UHGV virus genome: UHGV-1405961
Length of the DNA stretch: 37,242 nt
Source: a virus
Reading direction: 5' to 3' (one strand)
Part shown: in pieces, positions 2,285 to 30,435 of the stretch
Layout: the number at the start of each line of letters is the position of its first letter
Position numbering within the stretch: the stretch's first letter is position 1
The notes under the pieces: generated by a model
Database searches by the model: none
Seen by the model: the letters and a program-made list of their open reading frames with translations, nothing else
Told to the model about the DNA's origin: nothing
Made by a program: the position numbers and the translations under genes

Positions 2285-3163
2285 TCAGTAGTTATGTACT
2301 GAAGGAGGTAATTCTTTATTCTTAAGTCTCATCCATGCGGAAAGATTCGCTGGTCCGTCTGGCTCATTGATATCAACATCTCGTGTGTGATTGATTAAAA
2401 CGTCTCTCGCCATTCCGATAACATACGAGAATTCATGACCGTAGTCGTAGCATCTGCCGGAATAGTTCGATTGAACTTGTTTTAATGCCGGATACAGTTC
2501 GCGGAATAATGCCTGTGAACGGTTAGCATAATCCCATAGCCATACAAGGCTGTTTGCTTCTTTTGCAGAAAGCTCGTTTGCTTTCTTCTCTTGTTTGCCG
2601 ATAAACTCGCCTTCAAGCACTACCCTGTGGATGTACTCTACGGCCAGCGGGATTTGTTCAATTGAAAGTTCATCAATGCTGTCAATACCAAAACGCTGAT
2701 GAACCATATTGTATGCATCGTCATAGCGAAGTCCTTTCTTTCCTACCAGCATGTTTACTGCATCGCGTAGCGGCGTTCTTTCCTCAACAGTGGTTTTCTT
2801 GCCTTTCACATACTCGCCATGTTTGCGAATTGAAGGTAGAACTTCTGCTGTTACCCACTTGCGGAATTTGTGCGGGACCGAACCTTTATTGACAGCATCG
2901 CGGCAGCGCAGAACCAATGTATACATACCTGATTCGCTAACAATGCTTAGATTCTGCTCACCACCAAGGGTGTAACTTAAAGTTACTCCCTTTTCATCGT
3001 CATCAAGTGCAGTAAGCGCCTTGCGTGAGTTAGTCAGGGTTAAAGCATCACAAACATCTTTTGCTACAAACCACGGCTCACCGCATTTGTTGATGACGCG
3101 GATTTCACTGTCGCCGAATTTGAAGATGGTGAAATCGTTTTGTGCCTTTGCTATACTTTTCAT
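2285..3163 (-). CDS. ant: Antirepressor Ant (Bro-N/KilA-N-like N-terminal domain), immI region
   Basis: ORF downstream of arc in a P22-type immI arrangement; motif [26 protein letters not shown]. Start set at ATG 3163 (292 aa); the ORF track extends to an upstream TTG at 3229. Confidence 0.7.
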
Positions 3164-3231
3164 GTCAATATTTCCTAATCCGATTTGTTGATACCGAAGC
3201 CCTGACTGTTCCCGCAGTTGGGGCTTCAACT

Positions 3232-3393
3232 TTACGCGCCAATGCGCCCTTCCTTCTTAAAGCTTTCCATTACTCTCTGATAAATCTCAGAGTTAACAGA
3301 CCGACCATTCTCTTCCGCCACCTTGCGTACCAAATCCAATACTTCTTTAGGCCACCGCAAATTGAACTGCGGCATCTTGCTCATTCCTTTCAT
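3232..3393 (-). CDS. arc: Arc repressor (ribbon-helix-helix)
   Basis: 53-aa product [53 protein letters not shown], recognised as essentially P22 Arc; starts at an internal Met of the 74-aa track ORF. Confidence 0.85.
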
Positions 3394-3407
3394 ATTCACC
3401 TCACAAT

Positions 3408-3455
3408 ATAGGTCCACGGTGGACCTATTGAGAATATAGTAGAGTGCTTCTATCA
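3408..3455. promoter_or_regulatory. immI operators: Omnt-like perfect palindrome ATAGGTCCACGGTGGACCTAT and Oarc-like ATAGTAGAGTGCTTCTATCAT in the divergent arc/mnt control region
   Basis: Both palindromes read directly from the sequence in the 90-bp interval between the arc and mnt starts; they match the known P22 Mnt and Arc operators as recalled. Confidence 0.7.
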
Positions 3456-3483
3456 TGTCAATACACTAACTTGGAGTGATGGC

Positions 3484-3735
3484 ATGGCTAGAGATGATCC
3501 GCACTTTAACTTCCGTATGCCTATGGAAGTAAGGGAGAAATTAAAATTCAGGGCGAAGGCGAATGGGAGATCAATGAACTCCGAGTTGTTACAAATCGTC
3601 CAAGATGCTCTATCAAAACCATCGCCTGTGACTGGATATCGCGACGATGCAGAACGACTCGCTGATGAGCAGTCAGAGCTTGTTAAGAAGATGGTGTTTG
3701 ATACGCTGAAGTATTTGTACAAAAAACCCACCTGA
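3484..3735 (+). CDS. mnt: Mnt repressor (maintenance of lysogeny, represses ant)
   Basis: 83-aa product MARDDPHFNFRMPMEVREKLKFRAKANGRSMNSELLQIVQDALSKP..., near-identical to P22 Mnt as recalled; divergent from arc. Confidence 0.85.
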   Translation: MARDDPHFNFRMPMEVREKLKFRAKANGRSMNSELLQIVQDALSKPSPVTGYRDDAERLADEQSELVKKMVFDTLKYLYKKPT

Positions 3736-3751: not shown

Positions 3752-4171
3752 TTAGTCTTGCTTTGTTGATGGTATAAGAGATGCGTTTGCCTCTTTTGGC
3801 TTCAAGGTATACATCCCACCATTAAAAGGATCTACAGCAAGCCAACCAATTAACCCACCAAACACAAGGTTTCCACCAATATACCAACCATTAGCATTGG
3901 CTTTGATTGGCAGGGTAACTGGTTCGTACCCATCCTTTTCCATAGTGATCTGGTAGCTCTTTTTGCCAAAATAACTACCATCTGACTTGGCAAGAGTTAC
4001 TCCTTGCGGGGTCTTGCCTTGCGCAACAATCACGCCTGATTCGTCTTTTACTTTAAAGCTCGCACCGGAAGGATTGCTGTTCACTTGCACGAGCTGTGTT
4101 TCGTCACCAACAATAGTTGCGCACCCAGATAACAATATAGCGCCAGCAACAACGCCGATAATCCTCTTCAT
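3752..4171 (-). CDS. Putative lipoprotein with PEGA-like domain (moron in the P22 sieA slot)
   Basis: 139 aa from ATG 4169-4171. Signal peptide with lipobox (MKRIIGVVAGAILLSGC); motif NPSGASFKV..GKTPQGVTL..YQITMEKDGYEPVTL resembles PEGA domains; Gly/Trp-rich C-terminus. Confidence 0.6.
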   Translation of the reverse strand: MKRIIGVVAGAILLSGCATIVGDETQLVQVNSNPSGASFKVKDESGVIVAQGKTPQGVTLAKSDGSYFGKKSYQITMEKDGYEPVTLPIKANANGWYIGGNLVFGGLIGWLAVDPFNGGMYTLKPKEANASLIPSTKQD

Positions 4172-4289
4172 ATCAATTTCCATATTTGAAAAAACCGGAA
4201 ACATCCTAATGACAAACCATTCAAATGTGAAGTAGGCAAAAGATGTTTACTTTTTTCATGGTATCCTGCTCAAAACTAAGGAGGTTGGT

Positions 4290-4613
4290 GTGTATACAAC
4301 AGTTATCGTGATAGCTATCGCACTCATTGTGGTTCAGTACCAACTGGCATCTTTAAAACAAAAGATATCTGACCTCAAGACTGAGAACGAAGCACTTAAA
4401 AACTCAATAAAAGATGAGAAGAACAAACTATCATTCACTATATCTGATATTGAGCAATCCATTGAAATTATTGAGAATAATATTAACAGACTAAAAAAAG
4501 AAGATATTCATGAAATCAATGACAATATCAAGGATTTGAAATCTTGGCTTAGGAATGTAGGACAAATCGCCACATCAACACGAGATAAGCTCAATCCATC
4601 CATGGATGATTAA
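4290..4613 (+). CDS. Hypothetical small membrane protein (N-terminal TM helix plus coiled coil), AT-rich moron
   Basis: GTG start 5 nt after AAGGAGG; 107 aa; hydrophobic N-terminus YTTVIVIAIALIVVQY then heptad-like K/E/N/I-rich sequence. Markedly AT-rich relative to flanks; divergent from the lipoprotein gene and convergent with the gp16-like gene. Confidence 0.55.
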   Translation: MYTTVIVIAIALIVVQYQLASLKQKISDLKTENEALKNSIKDEKNKLSFTISDIEQSIEIIENNINRLKKEDIHEINDNIKDLKSWLRNVGQIATSTRDKLNPSMDD

Positions 4614-6773
4614 TTACTCCTGTGCTATTCCGCTTAGCGACGCTACAATGCCAGCCCTCGCTAAGCGATTGAACTCTTCGTTTCCAACTGCATCACGTAT
4701 TGCTTTTACGGCGGCTTTATTTGCCATAAATCTGCGTTCCGCCGCCGCTAATGCTTCTTTACTTCCGCCAGCTCTTACTGCTTTCGTGGCTTCCTGAACT
4801 GCTTTCTCTATCGCATATCGACCGCTACGCGTGGTGGCAATTTTAGATACAGCACCTTTTAACCCGGCGCCAACTAAAGCACCTACGGCCGCGCCTGCAA
4901 TGCCCCCACCTGCTCCACCAACAATGGCACCCGACGTTGAGTTTGCAATTGCATTTAATACTGTTGAGGTAACGTTGGATAAACCAGCGTCAAGATCACG
5001 TAGAACATTGGCTGTTCTCCCTGTTCTTTCAATATACTGCTGAGGCTTCACTGCCGCTCTTGCAAGAGTGCCATATGCATCAGCAATTCTTCCAAGTTCT
5101 GAGGAATATCTGCTAATGGCTTTTACATTTTGTGGGGTAAGTATCCCTGCGATATGGTTAATTCCTGCTGCATCAGATTTGCCACCACGTACACCATGCG
5201 AGATAGCATCCTGCAACATTGATGATATAGCAGGAACACGCTCTGATTCTGGCAGCGCGCGGATCATAGAATGGAATCCAGCAGGACCATTAAGACCTTT
5301 AGCTGACGATGATTGAAGAGATTTTACTCCATTCGTAATCAGTGCATCTGTTGCCAAATCACGCCCAAAAACAGACTCTGCACTCTCTTGTGCGGATAGC
5401 CTCGCTTTAGACAGATCATTAGCTTTTTGCCAGTCATCAAGAAATCCGCCGTTTTCCGCCATTGTGCGCATATCATCAGTAATTGCCCGGCGTATTTCCC
5501 CTGCTCTCCTTGCCGCATTTGCCTCTCCGCTACGCTTATATTTTTGCTCAGCATCAGCAAATTTCGCTCTCCATGCTTTCATGCCATCAAATGTTACTCC
5601 ACCTTGATTGTTTGCCTGAACAAACTGTTTCATTTCAGGAGTAAGCGGTATGCCAGCAGATCGCTCTGCCTGAATAACGGCATTACCATTTAGCATTCTT
5701 GCTTTTTGATTTGGCATTGTTGACCGCACGTCATCCCATGCCGCGCGCTCGGCATCCTTCATCTGATCAAGATTTTGAAGAATCCTTTGTTTTATAGCCG
5801 CACTTTTTTCTGATGCCGTTCCAGATGCGGCCCCAAATTCATCAAGGTTTCGACTTAACTTTGATGATATTTCGTTAAATGCTGCCTGATGGGCATCCTG
5901 AACAATTCCTGGTGTTGATGCCAATGCGCCTTCGGCTTGTGCAATTCCACGACTTCCAGATCGCATTCCTGGTGTTAATGCGTTTATATCAATTCCAGCA
6001 GACTCAGCCGCTTTTGCTACATCTTCGGACACATTAGCGGCCTGACTGGCAATTGACTGACGCCCAGCACCTGACTTTGCCATCCTAGAAACATCATTAG
6101 CAGAATTCAGTGCTGCACCACCAAGAGCCTGTGAAACTCTTGGCGCAATAACGCGCCCGACACCTGAAAGAACGCCTTGAGCACCAATATTGATACCACC
6201 GTTAATGGCAGCATTTTGTGCAAAGTCGCCCTCCTGATTTGCAGCATCAGCAAGAGAACCTGCAATCATGTTTCCTGCGGAACCGATATCTCCAGCGAGC
6301 TTTGCTGTCGCTCCAACAGCTTTTGCCGCTGTGCCAATTGGCAGGAGATACCCACCAATTGTTTCACCGGCTTGTGCGTAAGGGTCTGTCGGTCGATCGA
6401 CAGGGCGATAAACATCATCCAAAACCTTGGGGCCACCAAGCCCCTGACTGATTGCATTAATCAGACTTGCGCCACCCTGCAATACGTCAAATGGTATGTT
6501 TACCAGACCACGACCAGCCTGTTCTGCAATTTGCCCTGCACTTTGACCACCAGTGAGCCAATCGCCAGCTTGTTGCATCAATGATGGTTCTTCTTTCTGC
6601 TGCTGAGGCGGAGGGTATGCTGCATAAAACTGATCTCTTGCTTCAGCCCATTTGTCACCAGCCTTAGGGGCAACAACCTCATCAAAATATTGCGCTTGAG
6701 CCTGTGCTTTCTGTTCTTCAGTTAACGCCTGATACTGTGGAGAGGCGATAACATCTTTCCATGCTTTAGCCAT
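4614..6773 (-). CDS. DNA ejection (internal virion) protein, P22 gp16-like
   Basis: 719-aa Ala/Gly/Gln-rich ORF, last of the gp7/gp20/gp16 trio by synteny; start overlaps the upstream stop. Confidence 0.65.
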
Positions 6774-27319: not shown

Positions 27320-27458
27320 GACCTTTCTCCTTCTGCATCAGCTTCACTTTTTCCAACTCAGCCCGGAATCGACCAGGCTGCTTGAAGCTGGACAGGAAGC
27401 GATCACGTAGTATGTGTTTGTGAATTTTGTCCTGGTAAGGACTGAGTGGTTTTGTCAT
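27312..27458 (-). CDS. Hypothetical small basic protein (48 aa) between cII and O
   Basis: Not in the supplied track (<60 aa). Translated by me: [53 protein letters not shown] 4 nt upstream; ATG overlaps the upstream stop (TAATG) and its stop overlaps the O-like start. Confidence 0.45.
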
Positions 27459-27862
27459 TAAGCCTCCTCTACTTCGTAATCAGCGAAGTAACCAGTAGAC
27501 ATTTTTAAAAACCTTGATTCGGTGACTGTGTAAGCCTTCCTTCCTTTCCTCTCCTTGCCTTCAGGCTCTATGAGGTGGCACGAATAAATGATTCTGCGCT
27601 GCCAGTTGCCTGGCATTTCCACCACTGCCAGAACCTCAAGAATTCTCTTTCCTTCAGCATCAGCGGTGTAAAAACACTGATCACCATAACCACAATCGGC
27701 TGGCTCATAATTTTTGTGACAACCGCCAATCCAGCGCTCATCGGTATGCACGTTGCCGTCATAAGACTGATAATCTGTGCATACGAAGATAAATGGATAT
27801 ACGGTTTCGAACTTGTCACCGGCCTTTATGCCGGTGTTTACTTGCTTGGTTTGTCCTGGCAT
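27458..27862 (-). CDS. Hypothetical Cys-containing protein (134 aa) inserted between cII and O
   Basis: ATG 27860-27862 with AGGAG 7 nt upstream; [32 protein letters not shown]...[20 protein letters not shown]...SCHLIEPEG. The track ORF extends upstream into cII out of frame. Confidence 0.55.
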
Positions 27863-28195: not shown

Positions 28196-28254
28196 AACAA
28201 TTGATTGAATGTATGCAAATAAATGCATACACCATAGGTGTGGTTTAATTTGAT

Positions 28255-28286
28255 GCCCTTTTTCAGGGCTGGGATGTGTAAGAGCG
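28255..28286 (-). promoter_or_regulatory. nutR (boxA CGCTCTTACACA, boxB GCCCTGAAAAAGGGC)
   Basis: Minus strand reads CGCTCTTACACATCCCAGCCCTGAAAAAGGGC, matching lambda nutR boxA/boxB as recalled; between cro and cII. Confidence 0.8.
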
Positions 28287-28294
28287 TTGATAAC

Positions 28295-28525
28295 TTAAGC
28301 AGCCATTAATTCAGGCCAGATGCTTTCCCAATCAACCGGATGAAGGTCTTTGCGAGTCACTTCACCATTGCTGAACTTCTCAATCAGAACACAAAGTGCT
28401 GCGCCCAATTCATGATTACGGCTAAGTGCTTTCCTCAAATAGCCGATAGAAGTTCCGCACTTGGTGGCAAATTCTCTCTGCTCTTCCAGTGAAAGGGAGT
28501 TCAGATACAAGCGGAGTTCTTCCAT
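28295..28525 (-). CDS. cro: Cro-like repressor (HTH; YdaS/Cro family), not lambda Cro
   Basis: 76 aa, first gene rightward of OR and divergent from cI; HTH-like QREFATKCGTSIGYLRKALS; AAGGAG Shine-Dalgarno. Confidence 0.7.
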   Translation of the reverse strand: MEELRLYLNSLSLEEQREFATKCGTSIGYLRKALSRNHELGAALCVLIEKFSNGEVTRKDLHPVDWESIWPELMAA

Positions 28526-28556
28526 TTGCTATCTCCTTCCCGTTGTTGAATAAGGT

Positions 28557-28633
28557 AAGTTTACCTGCAGGTAAAAAACAAATCAATACCCACAGGTTAT
28601 TTACCAACAGGTAATCAAAGATAGAATTAAATC
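28557..28633. promoter_or_regulatory. OR region: CI/Cro operators (TTTACCTGCAGGTAAA and TTTACCAACAGGTAAT) with divergent pR (minus) and pRM (plus)
   Basis: Perfect 16-bp palindrome at ~28560-28575 and a related site at ~28600-28615. Minus-strand TTGATT-N17-TAAACT overlaps the first site (pR); plus-strand TAGAAT lies 8 nt before the cI ATG, implying a near-leaderless cI mRNA as in lambda. Confidence 0.6.
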
Positions 28634-29320
28634 ATGGATAAATACGAACAAAGACGACTAAGGCTGATAGAGATAAGAGACCGATTCTGTAATGGAAAGG
28701 CCTCAGAGTTGGCTCGTCGAATAGAAAGGGAACCATCATACGTTTCCAGAATGCTGTATCCGGAAGGAAAAAGCGGAAAAAAACGCATTGCTGACGATAT
28801 GATGGAACTAATTGAAAAATCTTTTAATCTCCCACGCGGATGGATGGACATGCTTGCAGATAGCAAAGTTGGATCTGCAGACCATCTTGAGTTTGCGGGT
28901 AACGTTCGTGCGGGTTTTGTTCCGGTAATTGGTGAAGCCGTTTTGGGAGTTGATGGCTCAGTGGATATGATTGAATTCAGATCCGGTTGGTTAAGCATCT
29001 ACAGTGGCGATAAAGATGCTTACGGTCTGAAGGTTAAGGGTGACAGCATGTGGCCAAGGATTCAGTCAGGAGAATATGTTGTTATTGAACCAAATACGCC
29101 AGTACATCCAGGTGATGAAGTCTTTGTAAGGACCAAAGATGGTCATAACATGATAAAGATCATGAACAAAACAAGAGACGGAGACTATCAGTTTAGTAGT
29201 ATAAACAGCGATCACCGTCCAATCACTCTTCCTGTTGAAGAAGTTGATAAAATGCATTTTGTTTCAGCTATTGTGAAACACACTAGGTACGTAGACCAGG
29301 ACGATCTGCCAAAATTTTGA
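28634..29320 (+). CDS. cI: CI repressor (N-terminal HTH, C-terminal S24 LexA-like autopeptidase)
   Basis: 228 aa; S24-type C-terminal domain motifs (VKGDSMWPRIQSGEYVVIEP, Ser-Lys dyad context) and divergent position from cro. Confidence 0.85.
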   Translation: MDKYEQRRLRLIEIRDRFCNGKASELARRIEREPSYVSRMLYPEGKSGKKRIADDMMELIEKSFNLPRGWMDMLADSKVGSADHLEFAGNVRAGFVPVIGEAVLGVDGSVDMIEFRSGWLSIYSGDKDAYGLKVKGDSMWPRIQSGEYVVIEPNTPVHPGDEVFVRTKDGHNMIKIMNKTRDGDYQFSSINSDHRPITLPVEEVDKMHFVSAIVKHTRYVDQDDLPKF

Positions 29321-29334
29321 GGATAAAGCAGCAA

Positions 29335-29631
29335 ATGTTTATACCAGGTATAGTGGTCGCTGTTGTAATCATCTGCTTCATATGGGCAAAGTTATCTCCT
29401 GTAAGCTCTAAGCATACAGCTGAACTCATGAAGAAGAAGCATCTTATACATGAGGCAGAAACGATAATTAAGAAGTTCAAAGGCATGTCATATGACGACA
29501 TGTCATCAGATCAGATTGCTATATATAAATGCGCCATTGAGCGTCTTGACTACTTAAACGGACTCAAACCCAAACACACCCCGGTAGAATCAAAATTGCC
29601 GCAATGGCCAAGCAATCCAAATAGCTTCTGA
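29335..29631 (+). CDS. Hypothetical small membrane protein co-transcribed with cI (rex-slot moron)
   Basis: 98 aa from ATG 29335 (track ORF starts at TTG 29317); N-terminal TM helix MFIPGIVVAVVIICFIWAKL; AT-rich; followed 12 nt later by a strong terminator. Confidence 0.55.
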   Translation: MFIPGIVVAVVIICFIWAKLSPVSSKHTAELMKKKHLIHEAETIIKKFKGMSYDDMSSDQIAIYKCAIERLDYLNGLKPKHTPVESKLPQWPSNPNSF

Positions 29632-29642
29632 CATCTCCTTTC

Positions 29643-29667
29643 AGCCCGCAAAGCGGGCTTTTTTATA
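29643..29667 (+). terminator. Rho-independent terminator ending the cI operon
   Basis: AGCCCGCAAAGCGGGCT followed by TTTTTTAT. Confidence 0.75.
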
Positions 29668-29683
29668 TCAATCCAAAAAATTA

Positions 29684-29770
29684 ATTACCTGAAAATTCAA
29701 ACAGGTAAACTCTCACACCAATTTTATTTACCTGCAGGTATAGACAACAGTTTTACCTGTAGGTATATTT
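29684..29770 (+). promoter_or_regulatory. OL operators and pL promoter
   Basis: Operator copies TTTACCTGCAGGTATA (29727-29742) and TTTACCTGTAGGTATA (29752-29767) plus a split site at ~29686-29710; pL -35 TAGACA (29741-29746), 17-bp spacer, -10 TATATT (29764-29769). Confidence 0.65.
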
Positions 29771-29809
29771 TAAGCCATCAGCAGGACGCACTAACCACCA
29801 TGAAGGTGA

Positions 29810-29840
29810 TGCTCTTAAAAATTTAGCCCTGAAGAAGGGC
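29810..29840 (+). promoter_or_regulatory. nutL (boxA-like GCTCTTAA, boxB GCCCTGAAGAAGGGC)
   Basis: The string TGAAGGTGATGCTCTTAAAAATTTAGCCCTGAAGAAGGGCAGC matches lambda nutL as recalled. Confidence 0.8.
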
Positions 29841-30108
29841 AGCATTCAAAGCAGAAGGCTTTGGGGTGTGGTGAAGCCAGCTAGTCACTGGCAAGTGCTT
29901 ACCTACTGTTGAGCGGTGAAGCGCTCCCAACGCTAGCAATAGCGTGGACGAGATGGGGAGCCGCGGGCGATAAGGCCGCCATAACGCGCACGTTGTCGCA
30001 TGGAAAAATCGCTGGGGTGCCGGTTATACCCCTCCGAATGAGACTCAACAAGCTGGAGCTAGACTACCAGCCACCACACCACCAAAGCTAACTGACAGGA
30101 GAATCCAG

Positions 30109-30435
30109 ATGGATGCACAAACACGCCGCCGCGAACGTCGCGCAGAGAAACAGGCTCAATGGAAAGCAGCAAATCCCCTGTTGGTTGGGGTAAGCGCAAA
30201 ACCAGTTAACCGCCCTATTCTCTCGCTGAATCGCAAACCGAAATCACGAGTAGAAAGCGCACTGAATCCGATAGACCTTACGGTGCTGGCTGAATACCAC
30301 GAACAGATTGAAAGCAACCTGCAACGTATTGAGCGCAAGAATCAGCGCACATGGTACAGCAAGCCACGCAGTGAAATGGGTGTGACTTGTGTTGGTCGCC
30401 AGAAAATGAAATTAGGCAGCAAACCACTTATTTGA
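30109..30435 (+). CDS. N: Antitermination protein N
   Basis: 108 aa, MDAQTRRRERRAEKQAQWKAANPLLVGVSAKPVNRPILSLNRKPKSRVESALNPIDLTVLAEYH.QIESNLQRIERKNQRTWYSKP, recalled as lambda N (Arg-rich boxB-binding motif); AGGAG Shine-Dalgarno. Confidence 0.9.
   Translation: MDAQTRRRERRAEKQAQWKAANPLLVGVSAKPVNRPILSLNRKPKSRVESALNPIDLTVLAEYHEQIESNLQRIERKNQRTWYSKPRSEMGVTCVGRQKMKLGSKPLI

What the first reader, a model, noticed from the sequence alone, without database searches (positions are those of the whole stretch)
29317..29667. Small membrane protein co-transcribed with cI in the rex position
A 98-aa ORF with one N-terminal TM helix follows the cI stop within 15 nt and is closed by a strong terminator just before OL. 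Lambda carries rexAB and HK022 carries nun at exactly this pRM-expressed position. The gene is AT-rich relative to cI, which suggests horizontal acquisition. A lysogen-expressed single-pass membrane protein here is a candidate exclusion or abortive-infection factor of unknown type.
Basis: partly seen in the sequence, partly recalled or inferred. Interest (0 to 1): 0.6.

Follow-up and report, generated by a model that had tools for sequence, protein, structure and literature searches.

The report
Prophage small membrane protein after cI
A real, conserved 98-residue single-pass membrane protein is made together with the prophage repressor; its function is untested. In related P22-like prophages a homologue takes the exact place of a proven superinfection-exclusion gene, sieA, so it is a good but unproven candidate for a new exclusion protein family.

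Summary
The ORF is real. It runs from ATG 29335 to the stop at 29631 and encodes 98 aa. It starts 14 nt after the cI stop and is closed by a -12.6 kcal/mol terminator just before OL/pL. The window is a P22-like prophage carrying the immunity module of phage mEp043, where the gene is gp49, a "hypothetical protein" (PHROG 10450, function unknown).

All 52 complete E. coli genomes and all 26 viral contigs with this cI also carry the ORF. It is under purifying selection (pN/pS 0.20). Every homologue has the same build: a hydrophobic helix from residue 1-3, then a basic helical hairpin predicted to face the cytoplasm, then a C-terminal W-P motif.

The family is tiny, about 13 clusters among 1.84 billion representatives. 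With one exception it sits in two slots, both in prophage-maintenance operons: right after cI, or in immI abutting gene 16, which is P22's sieA slot. In prophages with a 99.5%-identical immI repressor, promoter leader and Shine-Dalgarno, the cargo is either the experimentally proven sieA type B or this family.

No homology or fold match to any known defence protein was found.

The ORF is not meaningfully AT-richer than cI, and HK022 nun is not in this slot.

Best guess, unproven: an inner-membrane superinfection-exclusion factor.

The parts
28295..28525 (-). cro-like repressor gene (76 aa), divergent from cI
   Evidence: ORF list. PHROG 35, transcriptional repressor, E 7.5e-16. Annotated Cro in mEp043.
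28561..28627 (+). OR region: operator palindromes at 28561-28574 and 28601-28614, and a pRM-like promoter TTTACC-16-TAGAAT at 28600-28627 whose -10 ends 6 nt before the cI ATG, implying a leaderless cI mRNA as in lambda
   Evidence: Pattern search found 5 matches against 1.42 expected. Promoter scan. Sequence.
28634..29320 (+). cI repressor, 228 aa, LexA/S24 type
   Evidence: Pfam Peptidase_S24, E 1.4e-17. PHROG 4, transcriptional repressor. 98% identical to mEp043 cI.
29319..29323 (+). GAGGA Shine-Dalgarno-like motif overlapping the cI stop, 11 nt before the ATG; invariant in all 11 alleles
   Evidence: Sequence. Allele comparison.
29335..29631 (+). The target gene: 98 aa, PHROG 10450, equal to mEp043 gp49. 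Residues 1-18 form the membrane anchor, helices span about 21-47 and 58-76, and W91-P92 are conserved.
29335..29388 (+). Codons for the N-terminal transmembrane helix (MFIPGIVVAVVIICFIWA)
   Evidence: Kyte-Doolittle mean 2.84 over 17 residues and no charged residue before K19. AF2 helix 5-19.
29643..29664 (+). Intrinsic terminator closing the cI-ORF transcript (7-bp stem with 6 GC pairs, 3-nt loop, T-run)
   Evidence: -12.6 kcal/mol, z -4.1. Identical in all 11 alleles.
29728..29769 (+). OL operators (29728-29741, 29753-29766) and a pL-like promoter TAGACA-17-TATATT (29741-29769). The immunity-module homology ends at about 29763-29773, where lambda-type pL-transcript homology begins.
30109..30435 (+). 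Antiterminator N (108 aa), first gene of the pL operon
   Evidence: Pfam N36, E 1.5e-26. PHROG 271.

Best explanation
The ORF at 29335-29631 is a genuine protein-coding gene and a fixed part of the mEp043-type immunity module.

Expression (inferred from anatomy): it is transcribed with cI from pRM in the lysogen. No promoter or terminator separates the two genes, and the transcript ends at the terminator at 29643-29664, before OL. Translation starts at the ATG, either by re-initiation after the cI stop 14 nt upstream or from the GAGGA motif.

Product (inferred from sequence rules and an AF2 model): a 98-aa inner-membrane protein. Its first ~18 residues form the only transmembrane helix. By the positive-inside rule the N-terminus faces the periplasm. 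The basic helical hairpin, with conserved K34, L37-I38, E40-A41, A67, R70-L71 and W91-P92, faces the cytoplasm close to the membrane.

Function (inferred from genomic position only): a prophage-expressed superinfection-exclusion factor. It would act at the inner membrane against DNA entry by incoming phages, most plausibly P22-like phages. The target would be either their gp16/gp20 ejection-protein conduit or a host inner-membrane factor that the conduit needs. This would make it an analogue of SieA, not a homologue.
For: Real gene:
- PHROG 10450, full length, E 2.7e-55.
- pN/pS is 0.20 among 11 alleles, against about 0.12 for cI.
- Homologues at 27-40% identity keep the length, the N-terminal helix and the motifs.

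Start codon:
- Homologues begin M/V-[YF]-I-[SP] 3-4 nt after the cI stop, or 6-11 nt after a strong Shine-Dalgarno.
- In 7 loci the ATG is GTG, still a start codon.

Lysogen expression:
- 14-nt gap, no intervening signals, terminator before OL.
- Apart from one odd context, the family occurs in only two slots, both downstream of maintenance repressors.
- The first slot is after S24 cI: the window, mEp043, 26 IMG/VR contigs, 52 E. coli genomes, L055 and L056.
- The second slot is in immI, after mnt or after a second cI-like repressor, abutting gene 16.

Link to exclusion:
- The immI slot is P22's sieA slot.
- No locus carrying the family carries sieA type A or B.
- In E. coli HS prophage HS1, the proven sieA type B (PMC10883804) follows a repressor 99.5% identical to the one in L029 and L034.
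- Nucleotide homology is 98% to L034 and 94% to L029. It runs through the leader and the Shine-Dalgarno CTAAGGAG and breaks exactly there. After the break HS1 has sieA-B, while L029 and L034 have this family.
- Leavitt et al. showed that 106 bp upstream of HS1 sieA is enough for exclusion, so the same signals drive the family gene in those prophages.
- The cI-to-N interval is a known defence hotspot (rexAB, bstA).

Fast divergence typical of conflict genes:
- Between the window and L055/L056, the region from cro through cI is 50-92% nt identical per 60-nt block (mostly 70-85%, one block near 50%), and OL is 67-82% identical. The ORF is only 40-62% identical.
- At the protein level cI is 84% identical and the ORF 39-40%.

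Topology:
- 13 of 14 members have no charge before the helix, and 12 of 14 have net positive charge after it.
Against: - No functional data exist for any family member. Literature searches on mEp043 and its relatives, on exclusion and membrane proteins of lambdoid prophages, and on the P22 immI region found no paper dealing with this gene.
- The protein is unrelated to SieA: hhalign probability 0.6%, one TM helix against three or four, and no FxRYPxEAxxFNK motif.
- Almost none of the protein would face the periplasm, where SieA is thought to meet gp20. Any block would have to act through the TM helix or from the cytoplasmic face.
- Positional replacement shows a shared expression niche, not a shared activity. 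The same slots also hold unrelated genes, such as a Rap1a-like gene in L059 and a coiled-coil protein and a lipoprotein in this window.
- mEp043 is a siphovirus, so the family is not tied to P22-type virions.
- pN/pS cannot separate the sense frame from the antisense frame that shares wobble positions (0.17). Only the distant homologues settle which frame is coding.
- PGAP leaves the ORF unannotated in 50 of 52 genomes.
Confidence: 0.4

Rival explanations
1. Abortive-infection or post-entry defence factor. The membrane-anchored protein stays inert until a phage product or a membrane perturbation activates it. It then collapses membrane function or blocks phage development, as proposed for lambda RexB or other small membrane effectors.
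For: It occupies the same slot as lambda rexAB and BTP1 bstA, both abortive-infection systems expressed with the repressor. It is a small membrane protein made constitutively in the lysogen.
Against: It is a single gene with no conserved partner or sensor. Its neighbours differ in every context. It has one TM helix and no pore-like features. It has no PADLOC hit. Its positional equivalent in immI is an entry blocker, not an abortive-infection system.
Confidence: 0.2
2. Lysogenic-conversion or lysogeny-tuning factor unrelated to phage defence. The cytoplasmic domain binds a host inner-membrane protein such as a transporter, sensor kinase or FtsH-type protease. This would change host physiology or stabilise the prophage, like small regulators such as MgrB or SgrT, lambda CIII, or 434 Hex acting on induction.
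For: It is always co-expressed with a maintenance repressor, in two different immunity systems. Its size and build are typical of small inner-membrane regulators. Other non-defence cargo occurs in the same immI operons (Rap1a-like gene).
Against: The family is confined to lambdoid and P22-like phages and is very rare: 15 hits in 1.84 billion representatives and 1 of 185,579 species genomes. It diverges much faster than the flanking immunity genes. That pattern fits a phage-phage conflict better than a conserved host target. It also cleanly replaces sieA-B.
Confidence: 0.2
3. Not a functional protein. The ORF would be a chance reading frame in the spacer and terminator region between cI and OL.
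For: PGAP does not call it in 50 of 52 RefSeq genomes. The Shine-Dalgarno spacing of 11 nt is long. ORFs of this size are common in 40%-GC DNA.
Against: Purifying selection, pN/pS 0.20. Homologues at 27-40% identity in other phages keep the frame, length, TM helix and motifs, including copies with strong Shine-Dalgarno sites at another locus. AF2 gives a confident helical core, pLDDT 87-92 for residues 31-70.
Confidence: 0.03

Closest known systems
Phage P22 SieA (types A, B and C), inner-membrane superinfection-exclusion protein
   Same: It is prophage-expressed and predicted to sit in the inner membrane. Family members occupy the identical slot, convergent with and abutting gene 16. In L029 and L034 they use the same repressor, leader and Shine-Dalgarno as the proven sieA type B of prophage HS1. 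The family and sieA do not co-occur in the loci examined.
   Different: No sequence relationship (hhalign probability 0.6%). It has 98-114 aa and one TM helix, against 162-212 aa and three or four. The FxRYPxEAxxFNK motif is absent. The copy in this window is in immC after cI, not in immI. Function is untested.
Lambda RexA/RexB
   Same: Same map position, between cI and OL, and the same co-transcription with cI, ending at a terminator before OL. RexB is also an inner-membrane protein. This rests on established lambda biology and on PMC8585504.
   Different: One gene instead of two. One TM helix against four in RexB. No homology: no Pfam or PADLOC hit. No RexA-like sensor.
BstA of Salmonella prophage BTP1
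   Same: It is encoded directly downstream of the repressor of a P22-like prophage and is highly expressed in lysogeny, so it shares the hotspot.
   Different: [quoted passage not shown] The protein here is small and membrane-anchored, and has no PADLOC hit.
Small single-pass or few-pass injection blockers (HK97 gp15, T4 Imm, lactococcal Sie2009); comparison from my own knowledge, not tested here
   Same: They are small membrane-anchored proteins made by a prophage or early in infection that block DNA entry. Sie2009-type genes also sit next to the repressor gene in the lysogeny module.
   Different: No sequence or fold comparison with these proteins was run here. The phage lineages differ. The topology and targets of those proteins differ, or are periplasm-facing.
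HK022 Nun
   Same: It is a prophage-expressed exclusion function of a lambdoid phage.
   Different: It is not in this slot. nun lies downstream of pL and putL with its own promoter. Nun is a soluble RNA-polymerase-arresting protein.

Membership tests
PHROG 10450 (phage protein family of unknown function; includes mEp043 gp49) | Full-length match to the family profile HMM | tested here: met
   E 2.7e-55, residues 1-98 against profile 1-98 of 98. All nine divergent homologues tested also match, with E from 2e-50 to 1e-16.
PHROG 10450 | Shared architecture: hydrophobic helix from residue 1-3, helix-loop-helix, C-terminal W-P | tested here: met
   Alignments A1 and A2. Invariant residues are K34, I38, E40, A41, A67, L71, W91 and P92. 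Hydropathy and charge analysis of 14 members. AF2 model.
P22 SieA family | Sequence homology to SieA types A, B or C | tested here: not met
   hhalign of the family profile against P22 SieA gives probability 0.6%. tblastn with SieA-A and SieA-B hits only P22 and HS1 themselves.
P22 SieA family | Three or four transmembrane helices and the cytoplasmic motif FxRYPxEAxxFNK (PMC10883804) | tested here: not met
   The protein has one hydrophobic segment. The motif is present in P22 SieA and HS1 SieA-B but absent from the 98-aa sequence.
P22 SieA family | Location between genes 16 and 9 of a P22-like prophage | tested here: inconclusive
   Met by the immI-type paralogues. Not met by the copy in this window, which is in immC.
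P22 SieA family | Blocks DNA injection of P22-like phages | not testable with these tools
   Needs plating, K+ efflux or transduction assays.
Lambda Rex system | Gene pair rexA and rexB downstream of cI, co-transcribed from pRM | tested here: not met
   The position is met. However, there is only one gene, with no Pfam or PADLOC match to RexA or RexB.
Known anti-phage defence systems (PADLOC-DB v2) | Match to any defence-protein HMM | tested here: not met
   No families matched the window protein or four of the five homologues at E <= 1. One homologue (P0018) gave only two sub-threshold chance-level hits, E 0.025 and 0.037.
Moron (independent transcription unit) | Own promoter and own terminator | tested here: inconclusive
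   A terminator is present. No promoter-like site lies between cI and the ORF in the consensus scan. It looks like a cI-operon gene rather than an autonomous moron. The scan is only a consensus match.

The most novel reading that the evidence does not exclude
PHROG 10450 would be a previously unrecognised family of single-pass inner-membrane superinfection-exclusion proteins. Lambdoid and P22-like prophages would deploy it from either of their two immunity operons, in place of SieA. It would block phage DNA entry from the membrane or cytoplasmic side. Possible routes are capping or mis-assembling the gp16 inner-membrane channel, or occluding a host factor such as YajC, which Leavitt et al. raised as a possible required host inner-membrane component. 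That is a different geometry from SieA. Its rapid divergence would reflect an arms race with ejection proteins.
Probability: 0.35. Interest if true: 0.6.

Novelty: new variant of a known kind. Interest (0 to 1): 0.4.

Why it matters
- Only 22 of 66 sequenced P22-like phages carry sieA (PMC10883804). What fills that slot in the others is unknown.
- This family is a concrete, very small and easily cloned candidate. It comes with a natural control: in HS1 versus L034 the two cassettes are swapped behind the same repressor, promoter leader and Shine-Dalgarno.
- If it excludes phages, it would add a new protein family and a new geometry to the few understood DNA-entry blocks. It would also give a handle on the cytoplasmic end of the P22 ejection conduit.
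- RefSeq leaves this gene unannotated in 50 of 52 E. coli genomes.
- If it does not exclude phages, it is one more repressor-linked prophage accessory gene, of ordinary interest.

Tried and rejected
- Homology searches led nowhere beyond the family itself: Pfam, NCBIfam, PADLOC and PDB sequences. The word-indexed protein search returned only near-identical proteins. The exhaustive profile search found 15 hits in all.
- A Rfam scan of 28200-30200 found nothing better than E 0.06.
- I looked at a published sRNA at the 3' end of cI in another lambdoid prophage (svsR, PMC12803456). I dropped it because nothing links it to this cI type.
- The species-representative genome scan returned one locus only. 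An earlier attempt with the wider alignment failed for lack of a conserved stretch.
- Co-occurrence of the two paralogue types in complete E. coli genomes was 0 genomes shared between the 52 and the 57. About 0.5 is expected by chance, so this is uninformative.
- Rejected: a cI C-terminal extension. The frame differs and the TGA is conserved.
- Rejected: the 104-aa TTG start. Homologues leave no room for it, and the SieA-swap junction fixes the N-terminus at M/V-Y-I.
- Rejected: the antisense 72-aa ORF at 29283-29501. Its low pN/pS is the wobble-sharing artefact. The family's conservation (PHROG 10450 and homologues at 27-40% identity) lies in the sense frame.
- Rejected: separate horizontal acquisition inferred from base composition.

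Full report
**What is in the window**

The window is a P22-like prophage. It has:
- a tailspike gene at 241-2184;
- ant, arc and mnt at 2285-3735;
- ejection-protein genes, including gene 16 at 4614-6773.

Its immC region is inverted relative to the usual lambda map. The features, in order, are:
- cro at 28295-28525, on the - strand;
- OR;
- cI at 28634-29320, on the + strand (S24 peptidase type; Pfam E 1.4e-17);
- the target ORF;
- a terminator;
- OL and pL;
- a lambda-type N gene at 30109-30435.

Operator-like palindromes related to TTACCTGCAGGTAA flank the cI-ORF pair, at 28561 and 28601 on one side and at 29728 and 29753 on the other. The whole window has 5 matches against 1.4 expected. 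A pRM-like promoter at 28600-28627 ends 6 nt before the cI ATG, which implies a leaderless cI mRNA as in lambda. A pL-like promoter lies at 29741-29769.

**Checking the observation**

The 98-codon ORF starts at ATG 29335, 14 nt after the cI stop. A GAGGA at 29319-29323 overlaps that stop. The ORF ends at 29631. A hairpin at 29643-29659 followed by a T-run comes next; it folds at -12.6 kcal/mol, z -4.1.

Three observations favour the ATG:
- In L055 and L056 the homologue begins 3-4 nt after the cI stop.
- In N7, L029 and L034 it begins M/V-Y-I-S-L a few nucleotides after a strong Shine-Dalgarno.
- In 7 loci the ATG has become GTG, which is still a start codon.

- The ORF is not meaningfully AT-richer than cI. 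GC is 40.4% against 42.2%, and GC3 is 44% against 36%. It is the whole immunity module that is AT-rich relative to the phage.
- HK022 nun is not at this position. In the annotated hybrid O276 it lies beyond pL and putL with its own promoter.

**Is it a gene?**

Yes.
- It matches PHROG 10450 over its full length, E 2.7e-55.
- Eleven nucleotide alleles from 29 loci give pN/pS 0.20 in this frame. cI in the same loci gives about 0.12.
- The antisense frame that shares wobble positions also scores low (0.17). That is an expected artefact, and the distant homologues settle which frame is coding.
- Proteins only 27-40% identical keep the length (97-114 aa), the N-terminal hydrophobic helix and a set of invariant residues: K34, I38, E40, A41, A67, L71, W91 and P92.
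- RefSeq annotates the ORF in only 2 of 52 complete E. coli genomes.

**Distribution**

The 351-nt region occurs at 96.9% identity in phage mEp043, a lambda-like siphovirus in which it is gp49, a hypothetical protein. It occurs at 95.6-99.7% identity in 52 of 5,426 complete E. coli genomes.

A query spanning cro to N shows that the same 52 genomes carry the whole module. Homology to other lambdoid phages begins only at about 29763-29773. All 26 IMG/VR contigs with this cI have the ORF directly after it. So among near-identical immunity regions the slot does not vary.

The family as a whole is tiny:
- An exhaustive profile search of 1.84 billion representatives returned 15 proteins, about 13 of them convincing.
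- One of 185,579 species-representative genomes holds a copy.

**Genomic contexts**

With one exception, family members sit in two slots.

1. immC, immediately after an S24 cI and before OL and N. This covers the window, mEp043, L055 and L056.
2. immI of P22-like prophages, as the last gene after mnt or after a second cI-like repressor, convergent with and abutting the 3' end of gene 16. This covers N7, L029-L052 and L057-L060.

The exception is L054, which looks like a rearranged prophage remnant. One viral contig carries both a cI-linked copy and an immI copy (L011 and L035).

The immI slot is exactly where P22 has sieA. None of the loci that carry the family has sieA type A or B.

**The cassette swap**

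E. coli HS prophage HS1 carries sieA type B, which Leavitt et al. showed to exclude P22-like phages when cloned with 106 bp of upstream DNA (PMC10883804). In HS1, sieA-B (motif FNRYPGEARKFNK) follows a 213-aa cI-like repressor.

The repressor in L029 is 99.5% identical to it. Nucleotide homology to HS1 is 98% for L034 and 94% for L029. It runs through the repressor gene, the intergenic leader and the Shine-Dalgarno CTAAGGAG, and stops there. After that point HS1 has sieA-B, while L029 and L034 have a PHROG 10450 gene starting GTG-TAT-ATA.

The family gene therefore inherits the expression signals of a proven exclusion gene and replaces it at the start codon. This is the strongest functional clue available. 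It is positional evidence, not biochemical evidence.

**Evolutionary behaviour**

I compared the window with L055 and L056. Their cI is 84% identical in protein, and their operators are similar.
- Nucleotide identity from cro through cI is 50-92% per 60-nt block. Most blocks are 70-85%, and one is near 50%.
- It falls to 40-62% over the ORF.
- It returns to 67-82% at OL.
- The ORF proteins are only 39-40% identical.

So the gene is under purifying selection in the short term, yet it diverges, or is exchanged among alleles, much faster than its neighbours. That pattern is common in genes involved in conflict.

**The protein**

In 13 of 14 members no charged residue precedes the hydrophobic segment. 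In 12 of 14 the 15 residues after it carry net positive charge. The C-terminal part has net charge +1 to +6. By the positive-inside rule the N-terminus faces the periplasm and the remaining ~80 residues face the cytoplasm.

AF2, run with a 10-sequence alignment, gives mean pLDDT 77 and 87-92 for residues 31-70. The predicted helices are 5-19, 21-47 and 58-76, followed by a tail that carries W91-P92.

There is no informative fold or sequence match:
- BFVD Foldseek gives E > 0.9.
- No PDB sequence match was found.
- Pfam, NCBIfam and PADLOC give nothing above chance.
- The family is unrelated to SieA (hhalign probability 0.6%).

**Interpretation**

Shown:
- The gene is real and conserved.
- It is placed so that the cI transcript must include it.
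- It is a fixed part of the mEp043-type immunity module.
- It belongs to a rare family confined to repressor operons of lambdoid and P22-like prophages.
- The family is interchangeable with sieA-B in one operon.

Inferred:
- Expression in the lysogen.
- Inner-membrane location with N-out, C-in topology.
- A role in superinfection exclusion at DNA entry.

My estimates are about 0.4 for exclusion, 0.2 for an abortive-infection type of defence, 0.2 for a non-defence conversion or lysogeny-tuning role, and about 0.03 for no function.

The cI-to-N interval is already known as a hotspot that holds rexAB and bstA (PMC8585504). A lysogen-expressed accessory gene there is therefore expected rather than surprising. 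What this analysis adds is the two-slot distribution and the clean swap with sieA.

**Novelty and score**

The gene is already annotated as hypothetical (mEp043 gp49, PHROG 10450). Literature searches on mEp043 and its relatives, on exclusion and membrane proteins of lambdoid prophages, and on the P22 immI region found no paper dealing with it. If it is an exclusion factor, it is a new protein family doing a known kind of job, which makes it a new variant of a known kind. Interest is 0.4: a sound, cheap-to-test candidate, but not a surprise to a phage biologist.

Noticed in passing
window 4290-4613 (+) and 3752-4204 (-): The window's own sieA slot, between mnt and gene 16, has no sieA and no PHROG 10450 gene. 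It holds a 107-aa protein with an N-terminal TM helix and a coiled coil (PHROG 5962, unknown function) abutting gene 16. It also holds an oppositely oriented 150-aa lipoprotein with lipobox LSGC and a weak PEGA hit.
   Followed up: partly
L066 (E. coli HS, NC_009800 325462-326806) versus L029 and L034: There is a clean cassette swap behind a 99.5%-identical immI repressor and a shared leader and Shine-Dalgarno. HS1 carries the proven sieA type B, while L029 and L034 carry PHROG 10450 genes. The adjacent gene 16 also differs, so cargo and gene 16 may travel together.
   Followed up: yes
window 28600-28634: The pRM-like promoter TTTACC-16-TAGAAT ends 6 nt before the cI ATG. This suggests a leaderless cI mRNA as in lambda. 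An operator overlaps the -35.
   Followed up: partly
52 complete E. coli genomes (for example NZ_CP026399 5272859-5273155): PGAP/RefSeq leaves this ORF unannotated in 50 of 52 genomes. The immI-type paralogue, by contrast, is annotated as a hypothetical protein in all 60 records that carry it (57 genomes).
   Followed up: partly
IMGVR_UViG_2563366933_000009 (L011 and L035): One P22-like viral contig carries both the cI-linked and the immI-linked paralogue (about 37% identical). No complete E. coli genome among the 52 and the 57 carries both, against about 0.5 expected by chance.
   Followed up: partly
window 27458-27862 (-): An extra ORF of about 134 aa lies between cII and the DUF2740-like gene in the pR operon. 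It has no Pfam hit, and mEp043 has no such gene at that place.
   Followed up: no
L055 and L056 versus window 28295-29800: Three related immunity modules share similar operators and 84%-identical cI, but their post-cI genes are only 39-40% identical. L056 has no obvious terminator hairpin after the gene, whereas L055 and the window do.
   Followed up: partly
window 29240-29320 (3' end of cI): A 2026 paper (PMC12803456) reports a phage-limiting sRNA, svsR, at the 3' end of the cI gene of another lambdoid prophage. No Rfam family matched here (best E 0.06). Whether that cI is related to this one was not checked.
   Followed up: no
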